From contig JBHJMP010000875.1 of the NCBI GenBank assembly GCA_043381765.1, forward strand, positions 1 through 36,848: 36,848 bases of DNA, read 5' to 3'. A program made the translations under genes and the position numbers. The notes below the pieces were generated by a model that saw nothing but the letters and a program-made list of their open reading frames with translations, was not told where the DNA came from and did no database searches. Shown here one piece after another: positions 1 through 33,664 of this stretch. This DNA is from Collodictyon triciliatum (Eukaryota). Positions within the stretch are counted from its first letter, which is position 1; the number at the start of each line of letters is the position of its first letter.

Positions 1-59
1 ACAAATGGGGCGGTGGGCTTTTTCCTTTTCCTTTTTCCTTTTTCTTTTTCCTTTTTCCT

Positions 60-144
<85 letters not shown>

Positions 145-171
145 CTTTTTTTTCTTTTTTTTCTTTTTTTT
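1..171 (+). repeat. Duplicate of the aminopeptidase exon1/intron1 junction followed by a poly-T/(CTTTT)n tract
   Basis: Bases 1-35 (acaaatggggcggtgggctttttccttttcctttt) repeat 550-584, then run into a T-rich tract like the one at 568-810. Confidence 0.85.
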
Positions 172-407
172 CGACGTAAACAAGGCCGCAAAAGGGAAGG
201 CCAAGCTTTGAGCGACATAAACCACGCACACCAATACTGGAAAACAAAAGTGGAGAATAGTTTCTGGCTTTGCTTCGTGTCTGTTCTGATAGTCAAGTGC
301 TGTCCCGCATCGATGTGTCTTCTCCAGACAAAACAAACTGCGCGGTTCAAACCTGTGTCTGCTGCGATCTCTGCTCACCTGCGCGTTGTGCGTCCTTTTC
401 TGAACAG

Positions 408-4379
<3,972 letters not shown>

Positions 4380-4512: not shown

Positions 4513-6230
4513 TCTTTTTTCCTATTTTCTGTCCTTCCAACAAATTATGAAGGCATCAGCAAAAGCCGAGGAAACCGCCTTCGCCTCTAAGACAAAAATG
4601 AGCTGTGGACAAGACAGTGGAAACCCCGGATTGTGCGGTTGGAGTTTTTGTGTTTTGGGTGGAAAGAAAAAGAAAAATGAAATAGAAAGGAGAGAAAGTG
4701 TTCTCACACGCAGACTATTCTACCCGAGGTGAATCAGCTCCAACGCGATTTCTGGTTGTATTCGAGACTTGTAAAAGAGCGGATAAAGTTATCGGGTCGA
4801 TGAAAGTACGCACATGACAGTTTCTTATCGAATCGATTACGACGAGTCCTTTCAACCATCTATCTCAAACAAGGTTTACATCCTATTTCATTCCACTGGA
4901 TGAGTCTTTTGAGGGGAAAACGGGTCACTTTCCTTGCGTTTCTTGCTGGGCGACTCAGACGGAAAGCGATACATCGTTGTTTGTCTGGTATAAACGGAAG
5001 TGGCGCTTGACCGTCCCCTGGCATCGGAACCATGCGTAGCCGGCAGTGGACTTTGCTTAACCGGAGTATGGATAAGCGTTTGTGGTTTTAGAAACATACG
5101 CTCCTGCTTGCTCGAACTGTCTTTGGTGTGTGAAGTTACAAGCTTGGATTCGACTTGTGCTGTTTGTTCTTGCTCCTTGGTTCTCGGTGCGACGGGCTGG
5201 GGCAGGATAAACGGACTATCTTTGGTGGGCGCTGGTTCTTGTGTTGCCTTCGCTTGGAGTATCCTTTCGGATAAGTAACGAAGACTGCCTTGATGCCTCC
5301 TATGTTAACCATATTCACGTCAGTCTGAATGGATAGTTCAAGGGGGGATTCCTTTCGGGGTTTGGAGATGCGCTGCTCTTGGGTCTTGCGATGTGCGGGC
5401 TTGTCCGGTGTTGGCGGTGGAGGGCTCAAGTGTGATGATTCTGAAGAGGAACCGAGATTTCCTTCCATGTCGTCGTCGCTGTCGCTGTATGCGTGTATCT
5501 GCTGTGAGTCTTGCGGGCTCTGCTGTTTGCCTGGCCTTGGCTTCCTTGACCACGTTGCTGCTTGTCTGCTTAGCAGTTGTATTCTTTTGCGGGGCCTTTA
5601 CCTGTCGTTCGTTGTTCGCGGCTGGCGGACGCTCTTTGAGAATGCACTTTGGACACTTTTTGCCCATGACCGTAAACTTTGCAGGGAGCTGGTTCTTATG
5701 GCAAAGAAGCTTCACCATGGCCGTGTCTGTGAAGAAGCCTTTGTCCTTTTTGATGTCCTGAGGGGGTCGGTCTGAACGGCTTCAGCTCCTCACGAAGGAG
5801 TTGCGGCCACACGTCCAGCGGTAGTTGGTAGAGCATCACCGAGGTCTCTGTAGGTTTACTTCTGCTGAAGCTGATCGTAATATCGATCAAACTTACCTGC
5901 TTCGGCTCCAGAAGCTTTCGCGCGTTTTCTGCAGTGCACAAGGCAATCAGGCAAAGGCCTTCGCTGTCCGGGTAAGCGCAGTTGGATGGACTCTTCCCAA
6001 AGTTTGTTCGCTTTCAAGAAGGAGGCGGACGCATCTGTAAGTCTGCGGGCCTTGTTCTTGTTGTAAACGACTTGCTCGACCCCGTGCAAAAATACTGTCC
6101 GCTCAGACAGACTTGCAGGCGGCTTCTATGCGCGGGTCTTCCTATACTTACACTAAACTTGGGGGTTTTCCGCACCAGCGTTGGAACCAGAAGAACTGGC
6201 TGCAACTTGCGAAGCCTTCGACGGGTTGCG
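4513..6230 (-). mobile_element. Family A element, copy 1: decayed ~1.7-kb non-LTR-type element with a frameshifted ORF1-like frame and no visible RT
   Basis: Co-linear in reverse complement with 28733-30428 (e.g. 38-bp exact match 5295-5332 vs 29621-29658). Fragmented frame FLKANKLWEESIQLRL...AENARKLLE...VMLYQLPLDVWPQLLREELKPF...DKGFFTDTAMVKLLCHKNQLPAKFTVMGKKC ending HPVE* at 4888. Its 3' end is shared with short copies. Boundaries are approximate. Confidence 0.8.
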
Positions 6231-6629
6231 GCTCGTACTTTCCATCTGTCGTGTAAGACAGATTGACACTCGCATCCGCCATTCGTAACCTAATGAACAG
6301 ACTCGCAGCGCAAAAACTCTTCAAAGATGTATTCACCAGGCCTGTCTTAGATGAGTGCATCACACTTAGACATCGATATTTTACCATAATATTAGTTTTA
6401 GATACATGTCAGTATCGCTATTTTTCTCTTGCTCACAATTCTTTCAATAAAATTCACAATATGTTTGTTGAAGAATAGAACAAGGCAACCGCATCTATCT
6501 TAAGCATATTTTTTTATGATTCTTTATTGACGTATTTTCTATTCGTGTCTCAACAGTAAAAATTTCTTGAACCATTATATTTTAGTTTTTTTTTAAAATA
6601 AAAGATAATCCAACTTGAGAATCGGAGAG

Positions 6630-9600
6630 TTACTCTGTATGATTTGTGATTATATTGGCGAACTTTTCCTTGTAAGCTTCTATTGTGCTTCTGAGCTGTG
6701 ATATCCTATTTCTGATTGGCCCAAAATTGATTTTAGAAAAGCAGCTAAATAGAGGCTTCAGTAAGGCCCATACAAAAGGAACGATGAAAATGGTGATGAA
6801 AGTGGAATTTAATCCAATAATCGCATAGGATATCCAATCATTTCCTGGGAGAAGTTTTTGAACGAGAGCTGCAAAGAAAGAGATGTACAGCAGAAACCAG
6901 CAATTAGTGGAGAAAGAATCATCTGAATGTAGCATGTATGGCTGGTACCGATTCTGCATCGATAAGGAGAGCTGTACAAAATAAAATTATTAATAAGATA
7001 AACTTCCTAAATAAACGGAACGTCAATTCATGTCCTTAAAAAAAGAAGAATAAGAGGACGCAAACCTGTATCAAAATGAAGAAAATAAAGTAGAGAATAG
7101 CTGTGTATGTGTAAGGGACTACAAAAGCTGTCAAGCTGAATAGAACGGACTGTATAACCCGAACCATAATCCACCAGTCGCGTTTCTTTTTAAAATAATG
7201 CAAATGAGTTTTTTTGAACATTTTTCATTTTTGTGATTGGTATATCATCATTACCTCCTCATAAATACCAGCGAGTCGATTCATCAGAATCTGGCATACA
7301 ACTTCAAATGGATTTACAGGCGAATCCACACGATTGTCCGACGATGTCTGATGGGATTGAGGTCTTTGTCTCTCTGAATTACTTCGCCCCGGTTCACTTT
7401 CAGCCGCTTCAGACGAATTTCCCCTAGTTGCCTGAATCTCCCCATTAGCACCGAGATTATTCAGCCTTTCCATTGGGATATCGTTATCTGACCTCTTTTG
7501 TAACAACATCACATTCATTAATAATGAAAAAAAAAGCTTCTTTTTGAAATTTAATTTTTGAAAACCATGTTCTGGAAGGACATTAATAAAGATATGTACT
7601 CACATGGATACCATTTTCTTTTGCTTTCAATTTCCTGGTTCTTATGACAATGTACCACAGAAAGCTGGGATATAAAAATACGTAAACCAGGCCAGGAATA
7701 GCGGAGAGAAGCATCTTTAGGTAATTATCTGTCAATGGGCTGCACTGAATCCAAGGATACAAATTTACGAACCATTTCTTCACCCCTTCATCATAGAGAG
7801 TGCAACCGAAAGTACCAATAACATCTCGTACAACAGAGAAATATGTAGCTTCCAAGAATGTAAATGTAATCGCAACAACCTATAATTAAACAATTTTAAA
7901 AAAAAAAATACAATGCAAGGAAATACAATTGGTTATGTTATAAAAACTATCCGATGTTCATCCTACCTTTCCGATGTTTTTTGTATCCTTCTTTGCAAGT
8001 GTTCTCTTAAATATAAGGAAAGCAACGAAAGCAATAGAAGGGATTCGAGCGAGATTAAGAATCGATATAATATGTGGTTTGTTGCCGACGATGCACTCAA
8101 TGGTAGGTAACTTTAGTGAAAACAAGTTGCTTACAAATCTCCCAGTGGATGTAATAAAGGGCATGGAGACAACATTCCCCAATACTTGTAGGATTTGAGT
8201 GTAAAACAGAAATATATCCAGGGAGGCTACGATTACATATTATTTTAGAGACAGGAATCTAGTAGAAACTGAATGGATGAATAAAAAGAAATATGAATTA
8301 ATAGTGAAATGAAATACGATTACCTGAATCATGCTCGTCCTCACCTCCCCCATCGTCTCCGTCATCATCTGTACTTTCTTCAATCCATGCCATACCAATC
8401 TGATACAGTCCACCAATTATCAAAAGTGCAATAAAAGCAATTAATTTGATGATTGAGTAATCAGAGGAGCATTTGTTGCATTCTCCACTCTCGAATAAGT
8501 ATCCATCCTCACAAGAAGAACACCCTTTCCCCTTGTATCCTTTTTCACACGGAAAATCATAAGTATTATTGCTAATGAGCATCCTTTCAGGCATGGATTC
8601 TGGAATGTAAAATTTGCACACGTCTGGGTTCATACACGGAATTATCTGGACTATATTTAGAATGTCAGGAGTAAAATAGCACTTTTCCAAAGTAACCCCA
8701 TTATTGCAATCACATTCTCTGGGGCACTTCATGCAGTGATTTCCAAATCCAAAGTAACCAGGCAAGCATTTGCACATTCCATAGTCGTGATAATTTGAGT
8801 CAATTTCCACTTCCGTCTCAACCAACCCTGTACGAGAGGCAATCGACGGACATGAGTATCTGTCTGTCGTCTTTTCCAAATTGTAAGATTCTGTGACGTT
8901 AATAAAGAAGGGAAGAAAATATGAAGAACCATGATTCATACTCGTATTTTTCAAGCCTAAATACTCGATATTGGTGAATAAATCAAAAGACTCGGGAATG
9001 CTCCCAACGATTGGATTTCCAGTAAGATCGAAGGAAGACCATTTCAGTAGATTAGTAAGCCTATCAAGCTTCGTGATATTGTTGTTTTTAAGCCTCATTA
9101 CCCTTGCATTACGAACGTAATTAAATATCCTTCCATCGAACTTTCCATATAGTTGGTTGTCATCAAGCAGAAGGGTCTCGTAAAAGTAATCATAATTTCC
9201 TGTTATTGGTACAATAAAAGCACCAACATACCCTGAAAATGAATTACTTCTCAAATCTATAGAGATGAGGTTAGGAATATTCCAAAACAAGGCTGGCATA
9301 GTTCCGGAGAACTGGTTGTGGGATATGGACAACGACTTCAATTCTTTAAGATTCTGAAAATAAGTAGGTATTGTGCCGTTCATTTTATTATACGACAATT
9401 CGATGTACTTAATTGATGGTATATTCCAGTTTTTTGATATCGAGCCACTAATTTGGTTTTCGCTGACATCGAGTATCTCTAATAATGGCAAATTTAATGA
9501 AGGAAGATAGCTCTCCAGATTATTTTTGGAAACCAAAACCTCTTTTAATTTCAAGCACTTGTGAAAGGCAGGGACTTGGCCTAATATGTCGTTATTTTTA

Positions 9601-12065
9601 GTAACATATCGCAAGCTCAATTTTTCTTTTAATTAAGTTATTAATATCTCTTCAAAAAAAATTCGCTTACCGTTGAATTCATTATCAACAAGATTTAAAA
9701 TCCTGATATTGGTAATATTGCTGAAATTTGGTATCGTTCCTGAAAAAAATTCGCAATTTAGCAGAAATTTTTGTTGGAAAAAGTAAAAGAAAAAAATACA
9801 AACCAGTCAATTTATTAGACGATAACATAATTAATTGGATATTTGGAATTCCATTGAAGTTTGGGACCATTCCTGTAAGATAGAGTTAACCATCCATTCA
9901 TTCAATTTAATGCTATTAAAGACATAAATATTACCAATCAGATGATTGATGTCAAGATAAATTCGTTCGACATTCGGAATCCAACTGAAGTTTGGAACTG
10001 TCCCTGTGATGCAAGTTTAGTAGTTCATCAATCTACAAAATAATCTTAAAACATACCAGCCAGTTGGTTATTGCCCAGAGAAATTGTTCTAATATTGGGA
10101 ATTTCGCTGAAGTTTGGAATCGTCCCTGTGATATTATGTTATTTTTTCTTTCGCTTATACATTCAATCATCTTAAAATATACCATTCAATTGATTATTGC
10201 CAATAGCTATTATTCTGATATTGGGAATCTCGCTGAAGTTTGGAATCGTCCCTGTGATATTATGTTAGTTTTTTCGCTTATTCATGAATTTATAATATAT
10301 TACCTCTCAGTTGGTTCATGAAAAGAAATATGGTTTCAACAAATGGGATACCACTAAAGTTCGGAACAGTTCCTGTGATAAGATGTTAGTATTTTATCAA
10401 ACACATATGAAAAAAAATATGTAAGTATACCAGTCAGCTGATTATTATTAAGTTCTATGGATTTAATATTCGGAATGCCACTGAAGTTTGGAATCGTTCC
10501 TAAAATAAAAAAAAAACTTAATTATTCGTCAATGATGTATGAAGCTAAGTATAAATATTACCATTAAAACGATTATATCCAAGTCTGATTGTCTTTCCAT
10601 TTATAATTCCACTGAAATTTGGAATCGTCTCTGTGATATTTTGTTAGTTTTTTCCACTTATTCATGCATTAATATTATATTACCTCTCAACAGATTCAAA
10701 AAAAGCTCAATTCTTTCAACAATCGGGATACCACTGAAGTTTGGAATCGTTCCTGTGATGCCAAGTTAGTATTTATCAATTATCTATAAAATAATTATGT
10801 AACGTGCCTGTAAGCTGATTACTGTGAAGATAAATCTCTAAAACATTTGGAATACCACCGAAGTCTGGAACCGTTCCTGTGATAAAATTTTAGTGTTTGT
10901 TATATAATCAATAATAAAAATAAAGGCAGTAAAAAAAAACCATAAACTTTGCTTCCATAAACCGCAAGAATCTGAGCATTCGGTAGTCCAGAAAAATCAG
11001 GCAGAGCTCCTGGAAAAGAAAATATCTTAATTATATCAAAACATGAATGAATGTTAAAATAAATCAAAAACCTGTGAGTCTATCACTTATTCCAATCCGT
11101 AGTGTGGCTATCTTTGAGATTCCAAGAAAATCAGGAACTGTGCCATCCAACTCATTCTCATCAATCTCAAAGCGTTCAATATTAGGCATTCCTTGAAAGT
11201 CTGGAATTGTTCCAATAATTTGATTTACACGAAGGTTCAAATGTGAGATACTCGGAAGATTGAAGTCGGGAAGATTTCCGTAAATTTTATTGAAACTCAA
11301 GTCCAAGTAATTAAGTAATTGAAATCTCTCAATAATTGCATATGAAACTCCAATGTCTCCATTGAGGTTATTTTTTGGCAAATTGATTTTAACGATGGGG
11401 CATCTGCCGTTCTGTAAAAATAAAATAAAAAGTTAAAAATGTAGATAAATGTTTAATTTTTTGAGAAATCACCTTATAGTCTTCATCCAGACAACTCTGA
11501 TGGCACGATATCCCATACCAATCACAAATCGAAATACCGCCATCCTTCCATCCATTGGCCTGAAACCAATCTTTGCCGCCAAGTGTATTGTAGAATTGAA
11601 CAAGGAGTTCGTATTGAGACTCAGTATTGACATCCGCCATATTTCGGCTTCCTTCGTTCCACACAAACAATTTTTGGATATCTCTTCGTTTTGGTAAATG
11701 ACTTTCTTGATAAAAATCGGCCTCAACAGGATTTATTCGTCTATCATAATCCCATTCAGTATCATGCCCATATTTACTGGAGCATTCTCTGCTTTCGTGG
11801 AAATTAATCGGTGTTGAAGAGTTCTCGTCATTCTCTTTGAAAAAAAGACATGTTTCATCGTAGTAGTTCAACAGAATTTGAAATGCATCTTCGACTTTCA
11901 TTGAAACCAGCTCATCCCTCGAGTACTGACAACTATTTCCATTATTTTATGAGAAGGTTTAAAAACGTAATGGTTTTAAGATATCAAAACTTACCTTTGC
12001 TGGGGATAGATGGAAGATGCTGACGTAATTACGAAAGCAAAGGTGGCAAAGGAAAAGAGTAGCAT
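6630..12065 (-). CDS. Signal peptide - LRR ectodomain - Cys-rich (EGF/TNFR-like) stalk - multipass (~7 TM) receptor-like protein, 20 exons
   Basis: ATG at 12065, MLLFSFATFAFVITSASS signal peptide. Plant-type LRR N-cap (LVQFYNTLGGKDW...WKDGGISICDWYGISC) and LRRs of type LxxLxLxxNxLxGxIP. Cys-rich segments CKCLPGYFG..CMKCPRECDC and CEKGYKGKGCSSCEDGY. Hydrophobic helices with FGCTLYDEG..LYPWIQC, YEEKRDWW and YQPY motifs. All exons join in frame to TAA at 6632-6630; one donor is GC. Confidence 0.9.
9671..11009 (-). repeat. Tandem array of eleven 69-nt single-LRR exons (phase 1-1) separated by related 52-64-nt introns
   Basis: Exons at 11009-10941, 10876-10808, 10752-10684, 10630-10562, 10499-10431, 10372-10304, 10251-10183, 10125-10057, 10003-9935, 9872-9804, 9739-9671. 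Each encodes G(T/M/A)(I/V/L)P(N/D)FxxIPxxxxIxLxxNxLx. Several introns share an ACTAAC branch site and an ATCACAG acceptor. Confidence 0.95.
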
Positions 12066-14013: not shown

Positions 14014-28123
<14,110 letters not shown>

Positions 28124-28486
28124 TCTTCACCATGAAGTTCAAGTGAATCTTTATGGAAAAATAAAATAAAAATACTAACCCAAAACAAAGATATGTTTCT
28201 TCTGGATCTATGTTTTATTTTATATCTATCAGTTGAAAAAAGTATTCAAATGGTATATATTTGGTGCTCTCTTGTTCAACAAAAAAAAACACAATTTATT
28301 AATAAAACGCTCTCTGGGATTAACTATGGTGCCGCTCGACTCAGCACGCACAAAATCCTATATTACACACAAAACCAAATGACCCTAACTCTATAATGAA
28401 TGGGCATCTAAATTCTTTTGATATAAACCTTCACTACCAACAATATCACGCCCATGACTGATTTTCAATCAAGATTTCCCCGCTTG

Positions 28487-28673
28487 CTACCCACGCAACC
28501 AATCAACCAGTTGGGACGCCCACCTGACCAGCTCGCTATCACTGATTTCTTTCCAGTGCTACCCTCTCCACGGTAGTGTCTTCCCCTACTCGCGTTTGCT
28601 CTCTCCCATGCGCTCCATCCCGTCCCTTTGTATGGCATAACCTCGCTACAATTTGAATCGAATAAAGGAAAAA
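28487..28673 (+). mobile_element. Family B 187-bp A-tailed retro-insertion (SINE-like or 5'-truncated LINE) with a perfect 16-bp TSD
   Basis: aagatttccccgcttg at 28471-28486 and 28674-28689. The insert is C-rich and ends tttgaatcgAATAAAggaaaaa. Confidence 0.85.
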
Positions 28674-28732
28674 AAGATTTCCCCGCTTGATGAAAAAAAC
28701 AAGAGCTGAGACGGGGATATCAGCAAAAGCCG

Positions 28733-30428
28733 AGACCCATCGAAGGCTTCGCAATTCGCAGCTATTTCTTTCCGTTCCAATGCTTGTACGAAAAAATCCC
28801 CGAGTTGCACGTAAGTCCAGGAAGACCCGTGCAAAGAAGCCTCTTTCAAGTCTTTCTGAGCGGATAGTATTCTTTTACGGGGTCGAGCAAGTCGTCCGCA
28901 ACAAGAAAAAGGCCCGCAGGCTAACAGATTCGCTCGCCTTCTTCTTGAAAGCGAACAAACTTTGGGAACAGTCCATCCAATTGCGTTTAACAGACAGTGA
29001 AGGGCCTTTGCCTGATCGCCTTCTGCATTGCAGAGAACGCCCGAAAGCTTCTGGAGATGAAGCAAGTAAGTTTGATCCATAATATGTTCAGCTTTAGCAG
29101 AATTAAACCAACAGAGACCTCGTTCATACTCTACCAACTACCGCTGGACGTGTGACCGAAACTTATTCGTGAGATGCTGAAACCGTTAAGACCGACCCAC
29201 GCGGAGATCAAAAAGGACAAAGGCTTCTTCACAGACACGGCCGTGGTGAAGCTTCTCTGTCACAAGAACCAACTCCCTGCAAAGTTTACGGTCATGGGCA
29301 AAAAGTGTACAAAACGCAACTTAAAAAAAGGACATCCTTCGGTCTCATAGGACAAAAAAAACGAGCAAAATAATACCCTAGCCAAGCACCCAAGCAGCAA
29401 CAGGGTCAAGGAAGCCAACTCCAGGCAACAACAGAGTCCGCAAGACTCACAGCAGATACGCGCATACAGCGACAGCGACGACGACATGGAAGGAAATCTC
29501 GGTTATTCTTCAGATTCCTCTCACTCGAGCCCTTCGTTGACAACACCGGACAAGCACGCACATCGCAAGACCCAAGAGCAGCGCATCTCCAAACCCCGAA
29601 GGAATTCCCCCTTAAACTACCCATTCAGACTGACGTGAATATGGTTAACATAGGAGGCCTCAAGGCAGTCTTCGTTACTTATCCGAAAGGATACTCCAAA
29701 GCAAAGGCAACACAAGAACCAGCGCCCAATAAAGATATTCCATTTACCCTGCCCCAGTCCGTCGCACCAAGAACCAAGGAGCAAGAGCAAACAGCACAAG
29801 TCGAGTCCAAGATTGAAACTCCACGCACCAAAGACAGTCAGAACAAGTAGGAGTGTATGTTTATAAAACCACAAACGCGTATCCATACTCCGGTTATGCA
29901 AGTCCACTGCCGGCTATGCATGGTTAAGAAACCAGAGGACGGTCAAGCGCCACTTCCGTGAATACCAGGCAAACATAGACGGATCTCTTTTATCTGAATC
30001 CCCCAGCAAGAAACGCAAGGAAAGTGACCCGTTGTCTCCTCAATAGGTTCATCCTGTGGAATGAAATAGGATATAAATCATTTCTGGGATAGATGGTTGA
30101 AAGGACTCGTCGGAATCGATTTTCGAAGAAACTGCCATGTACATACTTTCATCGACCCGAATACTTTATCCGCTCTTCTGTCAGTCTCGAACGCAACCAG
30201 AAATCGCGTTGGATCTATATCACCTCCGGTATAATAATCTGTATATGAGAACAATACTCTCCTTTTCTTTTTTCTTTTTTCTTCCTTCCACTTAAAACAC
30301 AAAAACTCTAACCACACAATCCAGGGTTTTCCACTGTCTTGTCCACAGCTCATTTTTGTCCTTTAGGTGAAGGCGTCTCAACCCGCTCTGTTTTCTCTCC
30401 ATTAAATGTTGAAAAGAAACAAAAAAAC
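28733..30428 (+). mobile_element. Family A element, copy 2 (decayed, ORF1-like frame with stops and frameshifts)
   Basis: Co-linear with copy 1. The frame ends HPVE* at ~30064, followed by ~170 bp of conserved sequence, a pyrimidine tract, the conserved 3' terminus and an A run. The 5' boundary is approximate. Confidence 0.8.
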
Positions 30429-30439
30429 CACCAACAATC

Positions 30440-31296
<857 letters not shown>

Positions 31297-31589: not shown

Positions 31590-32366
31590 AAGTGAATAGA
31601 GATGAGAAAATGTGTTGTGAAATATCGCTCACAACATTTTACCTATAGTCTATTCGAGGTAAAGTTTTTTCTTCATAATGAAGCAATTGATCAATCATAG
31701 ATCCATAATTTGAATCGGACAGAAGAAAAAAAACCAAGGGCTGATCCTCTTCATTTTTAATTTTATTAACACCTTTATTTTTATATCTCCAAATGCTTTA
31801 CAACGTCTTTATATTATTTTACTATTTTTTTATATTCGATTCAAGTAAGAGTTTTTTATGTCGATGGACCGGCTTAGTTACTTTTAATCGAATAAATGGT
31901 ACAGTTTGGTCGTTTTTTTGCCTTCTTTTGAAATTAATGAAATACATTGTTTAAGGGGTACAGGAAAGCAGGATAAGGAAGCTTTATTAATGCCTCATCA
32001 CTATGCACCCGAAAGGGTCGATAATAGTTACAACTATAAAGGCTTGCAACTACCAGGAGCCCTGACCTGGATTCCATCTAGGGTCAGATTTCCCCTCCTC
32101 TGAAGTCAAATGATGCACAAATGACGTTCGAGTACGGAGACAATCTACTTATCAAACACACGTCCTCTTTCAACTCTTGGCTACGAAATATTGTATGATG
32201 CTATTTTTACCCTGAATAGTGCTTTTAATAACTTGAATACCTTCATTTCAATTGGATAATACAGGTACCCATATTAAAAATATGACATGAAATATTTCAT
32301 TGAAAATAAGATTGTTAACGAGATTTCTTAACCTTTAGATCTATTATTATGAGCATGACTATTAAT

Positions 32367-32510
32367 ATGATTATGATTATGATTATGATTATGATTATGA
32401 TTATGATTATGATTATGATTATGATTATGATTATGATTATGATTATGATTATGATTATGATTATGATTATGATTATGATTATGATTATGATTATGATTAT
32501 GATTATGATT
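32367..32510. repeat. (ATGATT)n microsatellite
   Basis: About 24 perfect units. Confidence 0.99.
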
Positions 32511-32874
32511 ATAATTATCTTTATACGAAAAAATTATGAGAATTGGAATGAAAAATTTCTTCTATTACTTTATTCAACGTCATACTCTTTAAAAAAAATC
32601 AATCACAATATATTGATCTTGTATGATTTTAATGAGAAAATAATAATAATAATAATAATGAAAAATTGATATTAAAGTCGAATCAAAAAGTTAAAAAAAG
32701 TATTCAAAAGAATAGAGACATATCATTGTAAATTGAAAATAAACCCTGAATTTTATAGGGTTAGTAATTGTTTCTAATGAAAACCAGGATTGTAAATTTG
32801 TTATCTTTTTTATAAATCTGCACAATCACTGGTCTTGTATAAGTTTATTTTTATAATTTATTAAAATATATGGT

Positions 32875-32926: not shown

Positions 32927-33161
32927 AAGAATATCTTACCCAATTCTGCTTCGCGTCGCCACATTATACCAAAGAATAAATAATTAGTCCAGACTTCAGT
33001 GATTTACAAGAAAGTCCAATGTTAATAAAATAAAAAAGAAAACTTATTTGCCATGGCATGAATGATATGAGAATTTTTTTGGATTTTAAGATAAGGTCGG
33101 GTTTAATATTTTGAGAAGCCAAGTCCCTGAATGAGTTAAATAATTGCTTTTGAATCAAGTG

Positions 33162-33664
33162 NNNNNNNNNNNNNNNNNNNNNNNNNNNNNNNNNNNNNNN
33201 NNNNNNNNNNNNNNNNNNNNNNNNNNNNNNNNNNNNNNNNNNNNNNNNNNNNNNNNNNNNNNNNNNNNNNNNNNNNNNNNNNNNNNNNNNNNNNNNNNNN
33301 NNNNNNNNNNNNNNNNNNNNNNNNNNNNNNNNNNNNNNNNNNNNNNNNNNNNNNNNNNNNNNNNNNNNNNNNNNNNNNNNNNNNNNNNNNNNNNNNNNNN
33401 NNNNNNNNNNNNNNNNNNNNNNNNNNNNNNNNNNNNNNNNNNNNNNNNNNNNNNNNNNNNNNNNNNNNNNNNNNNNNNNNNNNNNNNNNNNNNNNNNNNN
33501 NNNNNNNNNNNNNNNNNNNNNNNNNNNNNNNNNNNNNNNNNNNNNNNNNNNNNNNNNNNNNNNNNNNNNNNNNNNNNNNNNNNNNNNNNNNNNNNNNNNN
33601 NNNNNNNNNNNNNNNNNNNNNNNNNNNNNNNNNNNNNNNNNNNNNNNNNNNNNNNNNNNNNNNN
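33162..33664. other. Assembly gap
   Basis: Run of N. Confidence 1.

What the first reader, a model, noticed from the sequence alone, without database searches (positions are those of the whole stretch)
9671..11009. Candidate variable-receptor system: one-LRR-per-exon cassette array with a hypervariable binding face
Seen: eleven exons of exactly 69 nt, all phase 1-1, so any cassette can be skipped, duplicated or swapped without a frameshift. The convex half is nearly fixed (GTIPNFSGIPN). The xxLxLxxN beta-strand differs radically in every unit: QILAVYGS, LEIYLHSN, ERIELFLN, KTIRLGYN, KSIELNNN, ETIFLFMN, RIIAIGNN, RTISLGNN, ERIYLDIN, QLIMLSSN, RILNLVDN. Some introns look better conserved than these codons. 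The flanking LRRs (11411-11072 and 9580 onward) are intron-free, so the modular design is confined to this block. Known: those x positions form the ligand-binding concave face in LRR proteins, and exon-per-LRR shuffling has been described for brown-algal (Ectocarpus) LRR-ROCO genes. Inference: this is a diversifying non-self or prey/host recognition receptor varied by exon shuffling and/or alternative splicing, here on an extracellular multipass receptor.
Basis: partly seen in the sequence, partly recalled or inferred. Interest (0 to 1): 0.85.

Follow-up and report, generated by a model that had tools for sequence, protein, structure and literature searches.

The report
One-LRR-per-exon array in protist receptor
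A membrane receptor gene of an unnamed freshwater protist builds the middle of its leucine-rich-repeat domain from eleven 69-base exons made by tandem duplication, a known kind of design, and nothing here shows that it is a variable-receptor system.

Summary
On the minus strand, 11009-9671 holds eleven 69-nt exons. All are phase 1-1 and each encodes one 23-residue LRR. They lie inside an intact gene (12065-6633): signal peptide, cap, about 25 LRRs, Cys-rich stalk and a multi-helix membrane domain.

The array grew by duplication of exon-plus-intron segments. Cassettes 7 and 8 form a 126-nt tandem repeat. The stretch i2-c3-i3-c4 matches i5-c6-i6-c7.

The "hypervariable face" claim does not hold as stated. 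Concave positions differ between cassettes (identity 0.095) no more than between the intron-free LRRs of the same protein (0.091). Among duplicated cassettes, omega at concave sites is 0.87 (95% 0.33-2.22) and at scaffold sites 0.12.

Some introns are indeed more alike than the exons they flank (14% vs 23% differences, p=0.03). The cause is unresolved.

No RNA run was listed, so splicing could not be tested. Transcript isoforms of the closest relatives (Diphylleia rotans) show no whole-LRR skipping.

One LRR per symmetric exon is already described in brown-algal ROCO genes and gonadotropin receptors (72 nt, phase 2). This is a new variant of that kind, in a new receptor architecture.

The parts
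6633..12065 (-). Whole receptor gene. Domain order: signal peptide, N-terminal domain, LRRNT-like cap, about 25 LRRs, Cys-rich stalk, TM1, acidic linker, further TM helices, stop at 6633.
   Evidence: The spliced model is open from 12065 to 7967. The C-terminal exons align to Diphylleia P0134 and P0010 at 29-51% identity. Pfam finds LRR_8, LRR_4 and LRR_1.
11995..12065 (-). Exon 1: start codon and a hydrophobic signal-peptide-like N-terminus. The donor is phase 2.
   Evidence: Read from the sequence.
11473..11932 (-). Exon 2: N-terminal domain and an LRRNT-like cap (CDWYGISC).
   Evidence: Pfam LRRNT_2 scores E 0.0051 and 17.5 bits, below the 20.7 cut-off. By eye, the N-terminus resembles that of Diphylleia P0010.
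11072..11411 (-). Exon 3: about 4.5 LRRs without introns.
9671..11009 (-). Array of eleven 69-nt phase 1-1 exons (c1-c11) with ten internal introns of 52-64 nt. Cassette coordinates: 11009-10941, 10876-10808, 10752-10684, 10630-10562, 10499-10431, 10372-10304, 10251-10183, 10125-10057, 10003-9935, 9872-9804, 9739-9671.
10753..10807 (-). Intron 2, with a GC-AG donor. It is related to introns 5 (10430-10373) and 8 (10056-10004).
   Evidence: Identities are 0.73-0.75 for i2 with i5 and i8, and 0.67-0.68 for i5 with i8. Alignment, nhmmer.
10631..10683 (-). Intron 3. It is 89% identical to intron 6 (10303-10252) and 76% identical to intron 7 (10182-10126).
10039..10275 (-). 126-nt tandem duplication (1.9 copies, 87% matches). 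It makes intron 6 + cassette 7 and intron 7 + cassette 8.
   Evidence: Tandem Repeats Finder. Cassettes 7 and 8 are 84% identical.
8324..9580 (-). Large exon: about 9 further LRRs without introns, the Cys-rich stalk, the first TM helix and an acidic linker.
   Evidence: The stalk matches 132 proteins at E<=0.001.
6633..8226 (-). Exons of the multi-helix membrane domain: 8226-7967, 7879 to about 7600, about 7413-7051 in two exons, and 6986-6633. One acceptor, near 7570-7530, is unresolved.
   Evidence: The AlphaFold model of relative P0134 shows about 10 long helices after the stalk.

Best explanation
The block is the germline product of repeated tandem duplication of an 'intron + one-LRR exon' unit. 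It lies inside an intact gene for a large LRR-ectodomain, multi-pass membrane receptor.

The receptor belongs to a family that, among the records I could name, is expanded above all in the freshwater predatory flagellate Diphylleia rotans (CRuMs).

The eleven cassettes supply repeats about 6-16 of a roughly 25-repeat LRR solenoid. Each contributes one concave beta-strand (xxLxLxxN) and one conserved convex segment (GTIPNFSG, usually with an N-x-S sequon).

Because every unit is 69 nt and phase 1-1, unequal crossing-over can add or remove repeats in frame. After duplication, scaffold residues stay under purifying selection, while concave residues drift at about the neutral rate.

What is shown and what is inferred:
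- Shown: the exon anatomy, the intron homology and the family membership.
- Inferred: extracellular ligand binding by the concave face, signalling through the membrane domain, and constitutive inclusion of all eleven exons.
For: - Anatomy and open frame.
- Duplication. A 126-nt tandem repeat has 87% matches. Closest partners agree: c3 and c6 are reciprocal best, as are their downstream introns. c4's closest exon is c7, and their upstream introns are reciprocal best. c7 and c8 are reciprocal best; c8's closest upstream intron is c7's, and c7's second-closest is c8's.
- Selection. Pooled over three disjoint duplicate pairs, pS is 0.46, pN at concave sites 0.43 and pN at scaffold sites 0.09. That gives omega 0.87 (bootstrap 0.33-2.22) at concave sites and 0.12 at scaffold sites.
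- Between-repeat variability equals that of the intron-free LRRs.
- Family. The stalk region finds 132 proteins at E<=0.001. Of 20 clusters looked up, 11 are D. rotans transcripts, 7 are unnamed metagenome proteins, 1 is Planoprotostelium and 1 is Rhodelphis. The membrane exons align to D. rotans proteins at 29-51% identity.
- No whole-LRR indel appears in 0 of 23 pairwise comparisons of D. rotans transcript isoforms from 9 clusters.
- No orphan cassette is credible elsewhere in the 36.8-kb window. There were 13 pattern matches: 12 inside the gene and 1 two-mismatch match at 32983, against 0.21 expected by chance.
Against: - Homologous introns are more alike than the exons they flank. Intron mismatches are 22 of 157 and exon differences 48 of 207 (p=0.03). 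Synonymous codon changes occur in 18 of 50 same-residue codons (p=0.0016 against the introns). Plain co-duplication with neutral introns does not predict this.
- A Mantel test of exon against intron similarity over all 11 units is not significant (r=0.32, p=0.10; r=0.19, p=0.15).
- A 93%-identical environmental contig over 9170-9372 differs by 8 non-synonymous and 2 synonymous codon changes. Two or three of them fall at concave positions. This hints at fast protein evolution. It rests on one contig at depth 3.6, and I could see only 13 of its 15 differences.
- Constitutive splicing is assumed, not shown.
Confidence: 0.68

Rival explanations
1. This is a diversifying recognition receptor. The symmetric cassettes are skipped or combined by alternative splicing, or exchanged between loci by conversion. 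One gene would then yield many binding faces for prey or non-self. The conserved introns would carry splicing-control elements.
For: - All eleven exons are 69 nt and phase 1-1.
- Introns i3/i6/i7 and i2/i5/i8 are better conserved than the flanking exons and than synonymous sites.
- The non-consensus GC donor after cassette 2 could favour skipping. That is inference.
- Concave sites are unconstrained, with omega 0.87.
- An environmental variant shows 8 non-synonymous against 2 synonymous changes.
- Brown-algal ROCO genes with the same exon register are reported to be shuffled and alternatively spliced (PMC3341825 and PMC11378527 passages).
Against: - dN/dS is not above 1.
- x-position diversity is no greater than in the intron-free LRRs.
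- 0 of 23 isoform comparisons in D. rotans relatives show a whole-unit indel.
- No orphan or donor cassettes appear in the window.
- No long complementary docking or selector pair was found. The 20 inverted pairs are AT-rich, 11-26 nt and 76-93% complementary.
- Introns of 52-64 nt leave little room for control elements.
Confidence: 0.14
2. The LRR array is old and was once a continuous exon. The introns were gained later, by spread of a short introner-like element into the same protosplice site (xAG|G before GTIP) of neighbouring repeats. That would explain why the introns look younger than the codons.
For: - Synonymous divergence between c3 and c6 (pS 0.62) is as high as between most of the other cassette pairs compared (0.35-0.78). 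Their flanking introns differ by only 10-20%.
- Six introns form one family recognisable by a profile, with E from 1e-10 to 2e-7.
- The flanking LRRs have no introns.
Against: - Intron similarity follows exon similarity locally: c3 and c6 with i3 and i6, c4 and c7 with the same intron pair, c7 and c8 with i6 and i7.
- A 126-nt tandem repeat spans intron plus exon.
- The intron profile hits nothing outside the array in the window. The window is small, so this is a weak test.
- AT-biased mutation and splice-signal constraint in very short introns could also lower intron divergence. That is inference.
Confidence: 0.1
3. This is an assembly artefact or a decaying pseudogene array.
For: The window holds two runs of N (4066-4209 and 33162-33664). 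Repeats are prone to collapse in assembly.
Against: - The frame is open through all 16 modelled exons.
- All acceptors are AG, and 15 of 16 donors are GT.
- Independent metagenome contigs match stretches of the array with 0-2 differences.
- The N runs lie outside the gene.
Confidence: 0.03

Closest known systems
Type I LRR exons of brown-algal (Ectocarpus, Saccharina) ROCO genes
   Same: - There is one LRR per exon, in tandem arrays of equal-length symmetric exons.
- The exon register is the same: it starts at the G of GxxP and ends after NxLx.
- The repeat is a plant-like GxIP type.
- The array is inferred to have grown by exon duplication.
(PMC3341825 passages; PMC11378527 passages.)
   Different: - Here the exons are 69 nt and phase 1. 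There they are 72 nt, reported as phase 2.
- Here the ectodomain of a secreted multi-pass membrane protein is involved. There it is a cytosolic ROC-COR GTPase.
- Here the introns are 52-64 nt and hold no intronic or reverse-strand dead LRR exons.
- Positive selection and alternative splicing are reported there and not shown here.
Glycoprotein-hormone (LH/FSH/TSH) receptor genes of vertebrates
   Same: An extracellular LRR domain is encoded largely one repeat per exon, with all introns in one phase, on a multi-pass membrane receptor. It is interpreted as duplication of a prototype exon. This is as cited in PMC11378527 (passage). I did not read the original papers.
   Different: - Those introns are phase 2 and the membrane part is a rhodopsin-type 7TM domain.
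- Here Pfam finds no 7TM family.
- A confident model of a relative has no PDB match at E<=0.001.
LRR - Cys-rich stalk - multi-TM proteins of Diphylleia rotans (EukProt transcripts, e.g. P0134, P0135, P0010)
   Same: - The domain order is the same, with 23-residue GTIPNF-type LRRs.
- The stalk is 37-46% identical at E 1e-39 to 1e-55.
- The membrane exons are 29-51% identical.
   Different: - The relatives are known only as transcripts, so their exon structure is unknown.
- Some carry extra N-terminal modules. One search lists PF06119 for P0010; I recall it as NIDO, and the name comes from no call. One search lists PF14312 for P0006.
- The best identity is 46%, so none is the same gene.
Dscam exon clusters and lamprey VLR cassettes (diversifying receptor systems)
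   Same: They have arrays of similar, frame-neutral cassettes that encode a binding surface. The VLR cassettes are LRRs. This comparison is recalled from general knowledge.
   Different: - Dscam uses mutually exclusive choice guided by docking and selector RNA pairing. No such pairing was found here.
- VLR uses somatic copying from flanking cassettes that lack splice sites. No flanking cassettes are in the window.

Membership tests
Leucine-rich repeat proteins (Pfam LRR_1/LRR_4/LRR_8) | Repeated LxxLxLxxNxL core that reaches the Pfam gathering scores | tested here: met
   LRR_8 scores 49.6 bits against a cut-off of 27. LRR_4 scores 37.4 against 27. LRR_1 scores 41.6 against 20.6, all on the large exon. 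23 repeat starts were parsed at spacings of 22-29 residues.
Plant-type LRR ectodomains with an LRRNT_2 cap | N-terminal Cys-pair cap (PF08263) above the gathering score | tested here: inconclusive
   The window scores 17.5 bits against a cut-off of 20.7, E 0.0051. Relative P0135 reaches 29.3 bits.
Exon-per-LRR shuffling arrays (brown-algal ROCO type) | Each LRR in its own exon, equal length, same phase at both ends | tested here: met
   11 of 11 exons are 69 nt and phase 1-1.
Exon-per-LRR shuffling arrays (brown-algal ROCO type) | 72-nt exons in phase 2 | tested here: not met
   Here the exons are 69 nt and phase 1. The 72 nt and phase 2 values come from PMC11378527.
Exon-per-LRR shuffling arrays (brown-algal ROCO type) | ROC-COR GTPase domain downstream of the LRRs | tested here: not met
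   Pfam finds only LRR families in the exons searched. The C-terminus is a membrane domain.
Exon-per-LRR shuffling arrays (brown-algal ROCO type) | Inactivated or reverse-strand LRR exons inside introns or nearby (traces of shuffling) | tested here: not met
   12 of 13 matches to the cassette motif lie in the gene, all on the coding strand. The other is a two-mismatch match at 32983 on the + strand, against 0.21 expected by chance. The introns are 52-90 nt.
Exon-per-LRR shuffling arrays (brown-algal ROCO type) | Positive selection at concave positions | tested here: inconclusive
   Omega at concave sites is 0.87, with a bootstrap 95% interval of 0.33-2.22, from three cassette pairs.
Exon-per-LRR shuffling arrays (brown-algal ROCO type) | Alternative splicing of LRR exons | not testable with these tools
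   No RNA holder was listed. Only DNA contigs could be laid.
Diphylleia-type LRR / Cys-rich stalk / multi-TM receptors (unnamed family) | Homologous Cys-rich stalk followed by a homologous multi-helix membrane domain | tested here: met
   phmmer gives E 1.3e-55 to P0134 and 1.0e-52 to P0135. tblastn HSPs cover the membrane exons with E from 4e-13 to 1.6e-48.
LGR / rhodopsin-type LRR-GPCRs | 7TM rhodopsin-family domain | tested here: not met
   Pfam finds no 7TM family in the window exons or in the relatives. The best GPCR chains in Foldseek have E 0.8-1.9 and TM 0.11-0.18.
Fungal-type TRP (PF06011) membrane proteins | Match to PF06011 | tested here: not met
   There is only a language-model look-alike. 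It scores 0.94, and 25% of that cluster carry PF06011. hmmscan finds no PF06011 at E<=0.1 in P0135, P0134 or P0140.
Introner-like mobile introns | Many near-identical copies in unrelated genes | tested here: inconclusive
   The profile of six introns hits only the array in the 36.8-kb window. No genome is held.
Dscam-like mutually exclusive splicing | Docking site complementary to a selector in each variable intron | tested here: not met
   The 20 inverted pairs are short and AT-rich. None recurs in each intron.

The most novel reading that the evidence does not exclude
A deep-branching predatory flagellate of the CRuMs lineage may use frame-neutral LRR cassettes as a combinatorial recognition module. 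Cassette skipping or exchange would be guided by the unusually conserved short introns. One receptor gene of a large family would then give many binding faces for prey or non-self. This would be an independent, third invention of LRR-cassette diversification, beside brown-algal ROCOs and lamprey VLRs.
Probability: 0.1. Interest if true: 0.8.

Novelty: new variant of a known kind. Interest (0 to 1): 0.38.

Why it matters
This would be a third, independent case of the 'one LRR per symmetric exon' design. It differs in exon length and phase from the brown-algal and vertebrate cases. It sits on a receptor architecture that has not been described: an LRR ectodomain, a Cys-rich stalk and a membrane domain of about 10 helices with no solved look-alike. 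The family appears to be expanded in Diphylleia, a lineage whose cell-surface recognition is unknown.

The locus offers a concrete place to test whether protists vary LRR receptors by exon duplication or by splicing. As it stands, the evidence shows ordinary evolutionary modularity, not a working diversification system.

Tried and rejected
- Whole genome: none is held, so no genome-wide count of paralogs or orphan cassettes was possible.
- Earlier findings of this scan: three look-ups (by place, by sequence with P0001, by words) returned nothing.
- RNA evidence: no RNA holder was listed. Only Logan contigs of four freshwater-metagenome DNA runs could be laid.
  - The three 'joints' (7726>10695, 9478>10109, 9802>12160) have 20-22 letters on the shorter side.
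  - They come from single contigs at 85% likeness. The tool warns that such joints often come from other organisms or repeats. I do not read them as structural variants.
  - Bins without cover say nothing.
- Metagenome pattern scan for two adjacent cassette cores 100-130 nt apart: 18 loci. Of these, 17 are unrelated tandem repeats. One, L009, is an LRR array read as one continuous frame, that is, without introns.
- Word-indexed protein searches:
  - The whole large exon against longer proteins was swamped by generic LRR hits.
  - The stalk region found nothing at 'longer' or 'near' lengths, although HMMER on the representatives found 132. Those two blanks are therefore failures of sensitivity.
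- Rfam on the whole window: 0 matches.
- Docking/selector search by inverted repeats: only AT-rich chance-like pairs.
- Mantel test of exon against intron similarity: not significant.
- Membrane-domain identity:
  - Pfam finds nothing.
  - The Atlas gives only a weak TRP-like lead.
  - Foldseek against the PDB gives 0 matches at E<=0.001.
- Literature:
  - 'Collodictyon' plus 'leucine-rich repeat' gave 1 irrelevant paper.
  - 'LRR is encoded by' / 'single exon' / 'exon duplication' gave only dystrophin-type papers among the 12 listed of 169.
  - Supplementary tables of the two brown-algal papers were not seen. They may hold exon lists and site-model results that bear on the comparison.
- Alignment A1 of the three P0010 isoforms showed only a truncated form.
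Full report
**1. What is there**

The finding lies on the minus strand of an AT-rich eukaryotic sequence (about 30% G+C around it).

Reading 11500-9400 and testing frames in scripts gives eleven exons of exactly 69 nt. They start at 11009, 10876, 10752, 10630, 10499, 10372, 10251, 10125, 10003, 9872 and 9739.

- Each is preceded by AG.
- Ten are followed by GT. One, cassette 2, is followed by GC.
- The exon before each cassette ends in G, so every intron splits a codon after its first base. All cassettes are therefore phase 1-1.
- The ten introns within the array are 52-64 nt. The intron after cassette 11 is 90 nt.

My first regular expression caught only 9 of 11, because of the GC donor and because cassette 4 starts with A. 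I also mis-set the start of cassette 4 and corrected it from then on.

**2. The gene around it**

Joining the inferred exons from 12065 to 7967 gives 3147 nt without a stop.

- *Exon 1* (12065-11995) starts with a hydrophobic signal-peptide-like segment.
- *Exon 2* (11932-11473) ends in a CDWYGISC cap. It is weakly LRRNT_2-like: 17.5 bits against a cut-off of 20.7.
- *Exon 3* (11411-11072) encodes about 4.5 LRRs without introns.
- *The eleven cassettes* come next.
- *A 1257-nt exon* (9580-8324) follows. It holds about nine more LRRs, a Cys-rich stalk, a first membrane helix and an acidic linker.
- *Further exons* down to the stop at 6633 encode more membrane helices.

The borders of those last exons are supported by tblastn alignments to Diphylleia rotans proteins: 45% identity over 8939-8382, 38% over 8227-7613 and 51% over 6986-6786. 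One acceptor near 7570-7530 remains ambiguous.

The intron-per-repeat design is indeed confined to the middle block.

**3. Who has such proteins**

No genome is held for the window.

HMMER of the stalk region (210 residues) against 1.84 billion representatives gave 132 proteins at E<=0.001, 40 at E<=1e-10 and 7 at E<=1e-30. I looked up 20 of their clusters:

| Source | Clusters |
|---|---|
| D. rotans transcripts | 11 |
| Unnamed metagenome proteins | 7 |
| Planoprotostelium fungivorum | 1 |
| Rhodelphis marinus | 1 |

 P0010, ranked fourth, is also D. rotans. The best identity is 46%, so none is the same gene.

Short contigs of freshwater metagenomes match stretches of the gene with 0-2 differences.

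The source is thus an unnamed freshwater eukaryote that shares a receptor family with Diphylleia. A collodictyonid is the simplest guess, but it is a guess.

**4. How the array arose**

- Tandem Repeats Finder reports a 126-nt period with 87% matches over 10039-10275. That is intron 6 + cassette 7 against intron 7 + cassette 8. These cassettes are 84% identical.
- Introns fall into related groups. i3, i6 and i7 are 76-89% identical. i2, i5 and i8 are 67-75% identical.
- A profile of these six introns finds each of them, at E from 1e-10 to 2e-7. It finds intron 1 weakly (E 0.033) and nothing else in the window.
- Closest partners agree locally.
  - c3 and c6 are each other's closest exons, and their downstream introns are reciprocal best.
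  - c4's closest exon is c7, and they share the same best upstream-intron pair.
  - c7 and c8 are reciprocal best.
- The three-way alignment of c2-c4, c5-c7 and c8-c10 shows this period-three order.

A Mantel test over all eleven units is not significant (r=0.32, p=0.10; r=0.19, p=0.15). The case for co-duplication therefore rests on these local concordances and on the tandem repeat, not on a global statistic.

I conclude that the block grew by duplication of exon+intron segments. This also explains why the introns are confined to it.

**5. Is the binding face hypervariable?**

Between repeats, no more than in any LRR protein. Pairwise identity at x2, x3, x5, x7 and x8 is as follows:

| Set | Identity |
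|---|---|
| The 11 cassettes | 0.095 |
| 12 intron-free LRRs of the same protein | 0.091 |
| Three Diphylleia relatives | 0.12-0.15 |
| A plant EIX1-like protein | 0.18 |

Among duplicated cassettes, differences do concentrate on the concave face. Pooled over the disjoint pairs c2/c5, c3/c6 and c7/c8:

- pN is 0.43 at concave sites and 0.09 at scaffold sites, and pS is 0.46.
- Omega is 0.87 at concave sites (bootstrap 95% interval 0.33-2.22) and 0.12 at scaffold sites.

The face is unconstrained, but an excess of replacement change is not shown.

One environmental contig is 93% identical over 9170-9372, in the intron-free LRRs. It differs by 8 replacement and 2 silent codon changes, two or three of them at concave positions. 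This hints at fast evolution of the domain. It is one contig at depth 3.6, and I could see only 13 of its 15 differences.

**6. The intron anomaly**

- For the three homologous pairs, introns differ at 22 of 157 aligned sites and exons at 48 of 207 (Fisher p=0.03).
- Of 50 codons that keep the same residue, 18 use a different codon (p=0.0016 against the introns).
- For c3/c6, pS is 0.62, while the flanking introns differ by 10% and 20%.

I see four possible causes and cannot separate them:

- constraint on very short introns;
- AT-biased mutation that slows divergence of AT-rich introns relative to third codon positions;
- conversion that homogenises introns while selection keeps the exons distinct;
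- younger, spreading introns.

No copy of these introns lies elsewhere in the window. No recurring complementary element suggests Dscam-like control.

**7. Splicing and shuffling**

Neither could be tested directly.

- No RNA holder was listed.
- Among D. rotans transcript isoforms that share 90%-identity clusters, 0 of 23 pairwise comparisons in 9 groups show an internal gap of one or more whole LRRs. Length differences are terminal truncations or small gaps elsewhere. Trinity isoforms of relatives are weak evidence, but they point against common cassette skipping.
- The window holds no credible orphan cassette.
- A scan of metagenome contigs for two adjacent cassette cores gave 18 loci, none of them a paralogous exon array.

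**8. The membrane domain**

- Pfam finds no family in the membrane exons or in the relatives.
- An AlphaFold model of relative P0134, built on a 30-sequence alignment, is confident: mean pLDDT 80.6 and pTM 0.79. It shows about ten long helices after the stalk.
- Foldseek against the PDB gives 0 matches at E<=0.001. The best is E 0.31, with TM-scores normalised by query length of 0.15 or less. Only faint laminin-EGF-like matches cover the stalk.
- The protein-atlas look-alikes include a cluster in which 25% of members carry the fungal TRP family PF06011 (score 0.94). hmmscan does not confirm it.

How the receptor signals is unknown.

**9. Comparison with what is known**

In brown-algal ROCO genes each LRR is encoded by one 72-nt exon of the form GxxPxxLxxxxxLxxLxLxxNxLx. 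That is the same register as here. The arrays show shuffling, intronic dead exons and some positively selected concave sites (PMC3341825, passages).

A later paper gives phase 2 for these exons. It notes the same one-LRR-per-exon, phase-2 design in gonadotropin receptors, and it discusses alternative splicing (PMC11378527, passages).

The present array shares the principle and the register. It differs in several ways:

- length (69 nt) and phase (1);
- intron size;
- absence of dead exons;
- protein context: a secreted ectodomain on a novel membrane domain instead of a cytosolic GTPase or a 7TM GPCR.

I recall, without a call, that phase 1-1 is the class typical of shuffled extracellular modules in animals.

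**10. Verdict**

- It over-reads ordinary LRR sequence diversity as hypervariability.
- Diversification by splicing or shuffling remains an untested possibility, which I put near 0.1-0.15.

I file this as a new variant of a known kind, of moderate interest.

Noticed in passing
window 6633-8226 (-); model of relative P0134: The multi-helix membrane domain has no Pfam family. A confident AlphaFold model of a 46%-identical relative (pLDDT 80.6, pTM 0.79) has no PDB match at E<=0.001. It may be an undescribed membrane fold, shared by a receptor family expanded in Diphylleia.
   Followed up: partly
window 9671-10752 (-), cassettes 3-9 and 11: 8 of 11 cassettes carry an N-x-S/T sequon (N-F-S) at the same place in the conserved convex segment GTIPNFSG. 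Cassette 11 has a second one, N-I-T. The convex side may be regularly glycosylated.
   Followed up: no
window 10807-10806 (-), donor of the intron after cassette 2: This is the only non-GT donor in the modelled gene: GC, in a weak context. The homologous introns 5 and 8 have GT there. It is a candidate weak point for skipping of cassette 2.
   Followed up: no
window 9170-9372: A freshwater-metagenome contig, 93% identical at depth 3.6, differs by clustered multi-base codon changes: 8 replacement and 2 silent. It could be a diverged strain or a close paralog.
   Followed up: partly
window about 16960-25680 (+): A neighbouring gene with long introns has ORF pieces that hit Kelch repeats (16963-17382 and 19432-19911). 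Another piece hits the end of a kinase-like domain and the start of a guanylate/adenylate cyclase domain (25168-25677). It looks like a receptor-type cyclase.
   Followed up: no
window about 5000-6233 and 28000-31000: These blocks are rich in G+C: 0.53 for the first and 0.42-0.48 for the second, against about 0.30 around them. Bin 6000-6233 has 28-64x summed contig depth in three metagenome runs, with many variants. The gene itself has about 2-4x. The 5000-6233 block is probably a repeated or mobile element. No Pfam hit appears on two of its ORFs.
   Followed up: no
window 1-850, 19750-19910, 30490-30610, 32330-32560: Long simple repeats. They appear as Lys/Glu/Arg-rich, poly-Tyr/Ile/Leu, (Cys-Val)n and (Asn-His)n runs in the ORF translations. 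N runs lie at 4066-4209 and 33162-33664.
   Followed up: no
proteins P0010, P0006 (Diphylleia rotans): Relatives combine the same LRR-stalk-membrane core with other N-terminal modules. P0010 lists PF06119, with repeated FW(T/S/A)D(L/N/V)D motifs; I recall it as NIDO, a domain I know mainly from animals. P0006 lists PF14312 and has several LRRNT+LRR blocks.
   Followed up: no
locus L009, about 560-1250 (+): A metagenome contig (G+C 0.35) encodes at least 10 consecutive 23-residue LRRs of the same GxIP(N/D)FS type in one open frame, without introns. Its organism is unknown.
   Followed up: no
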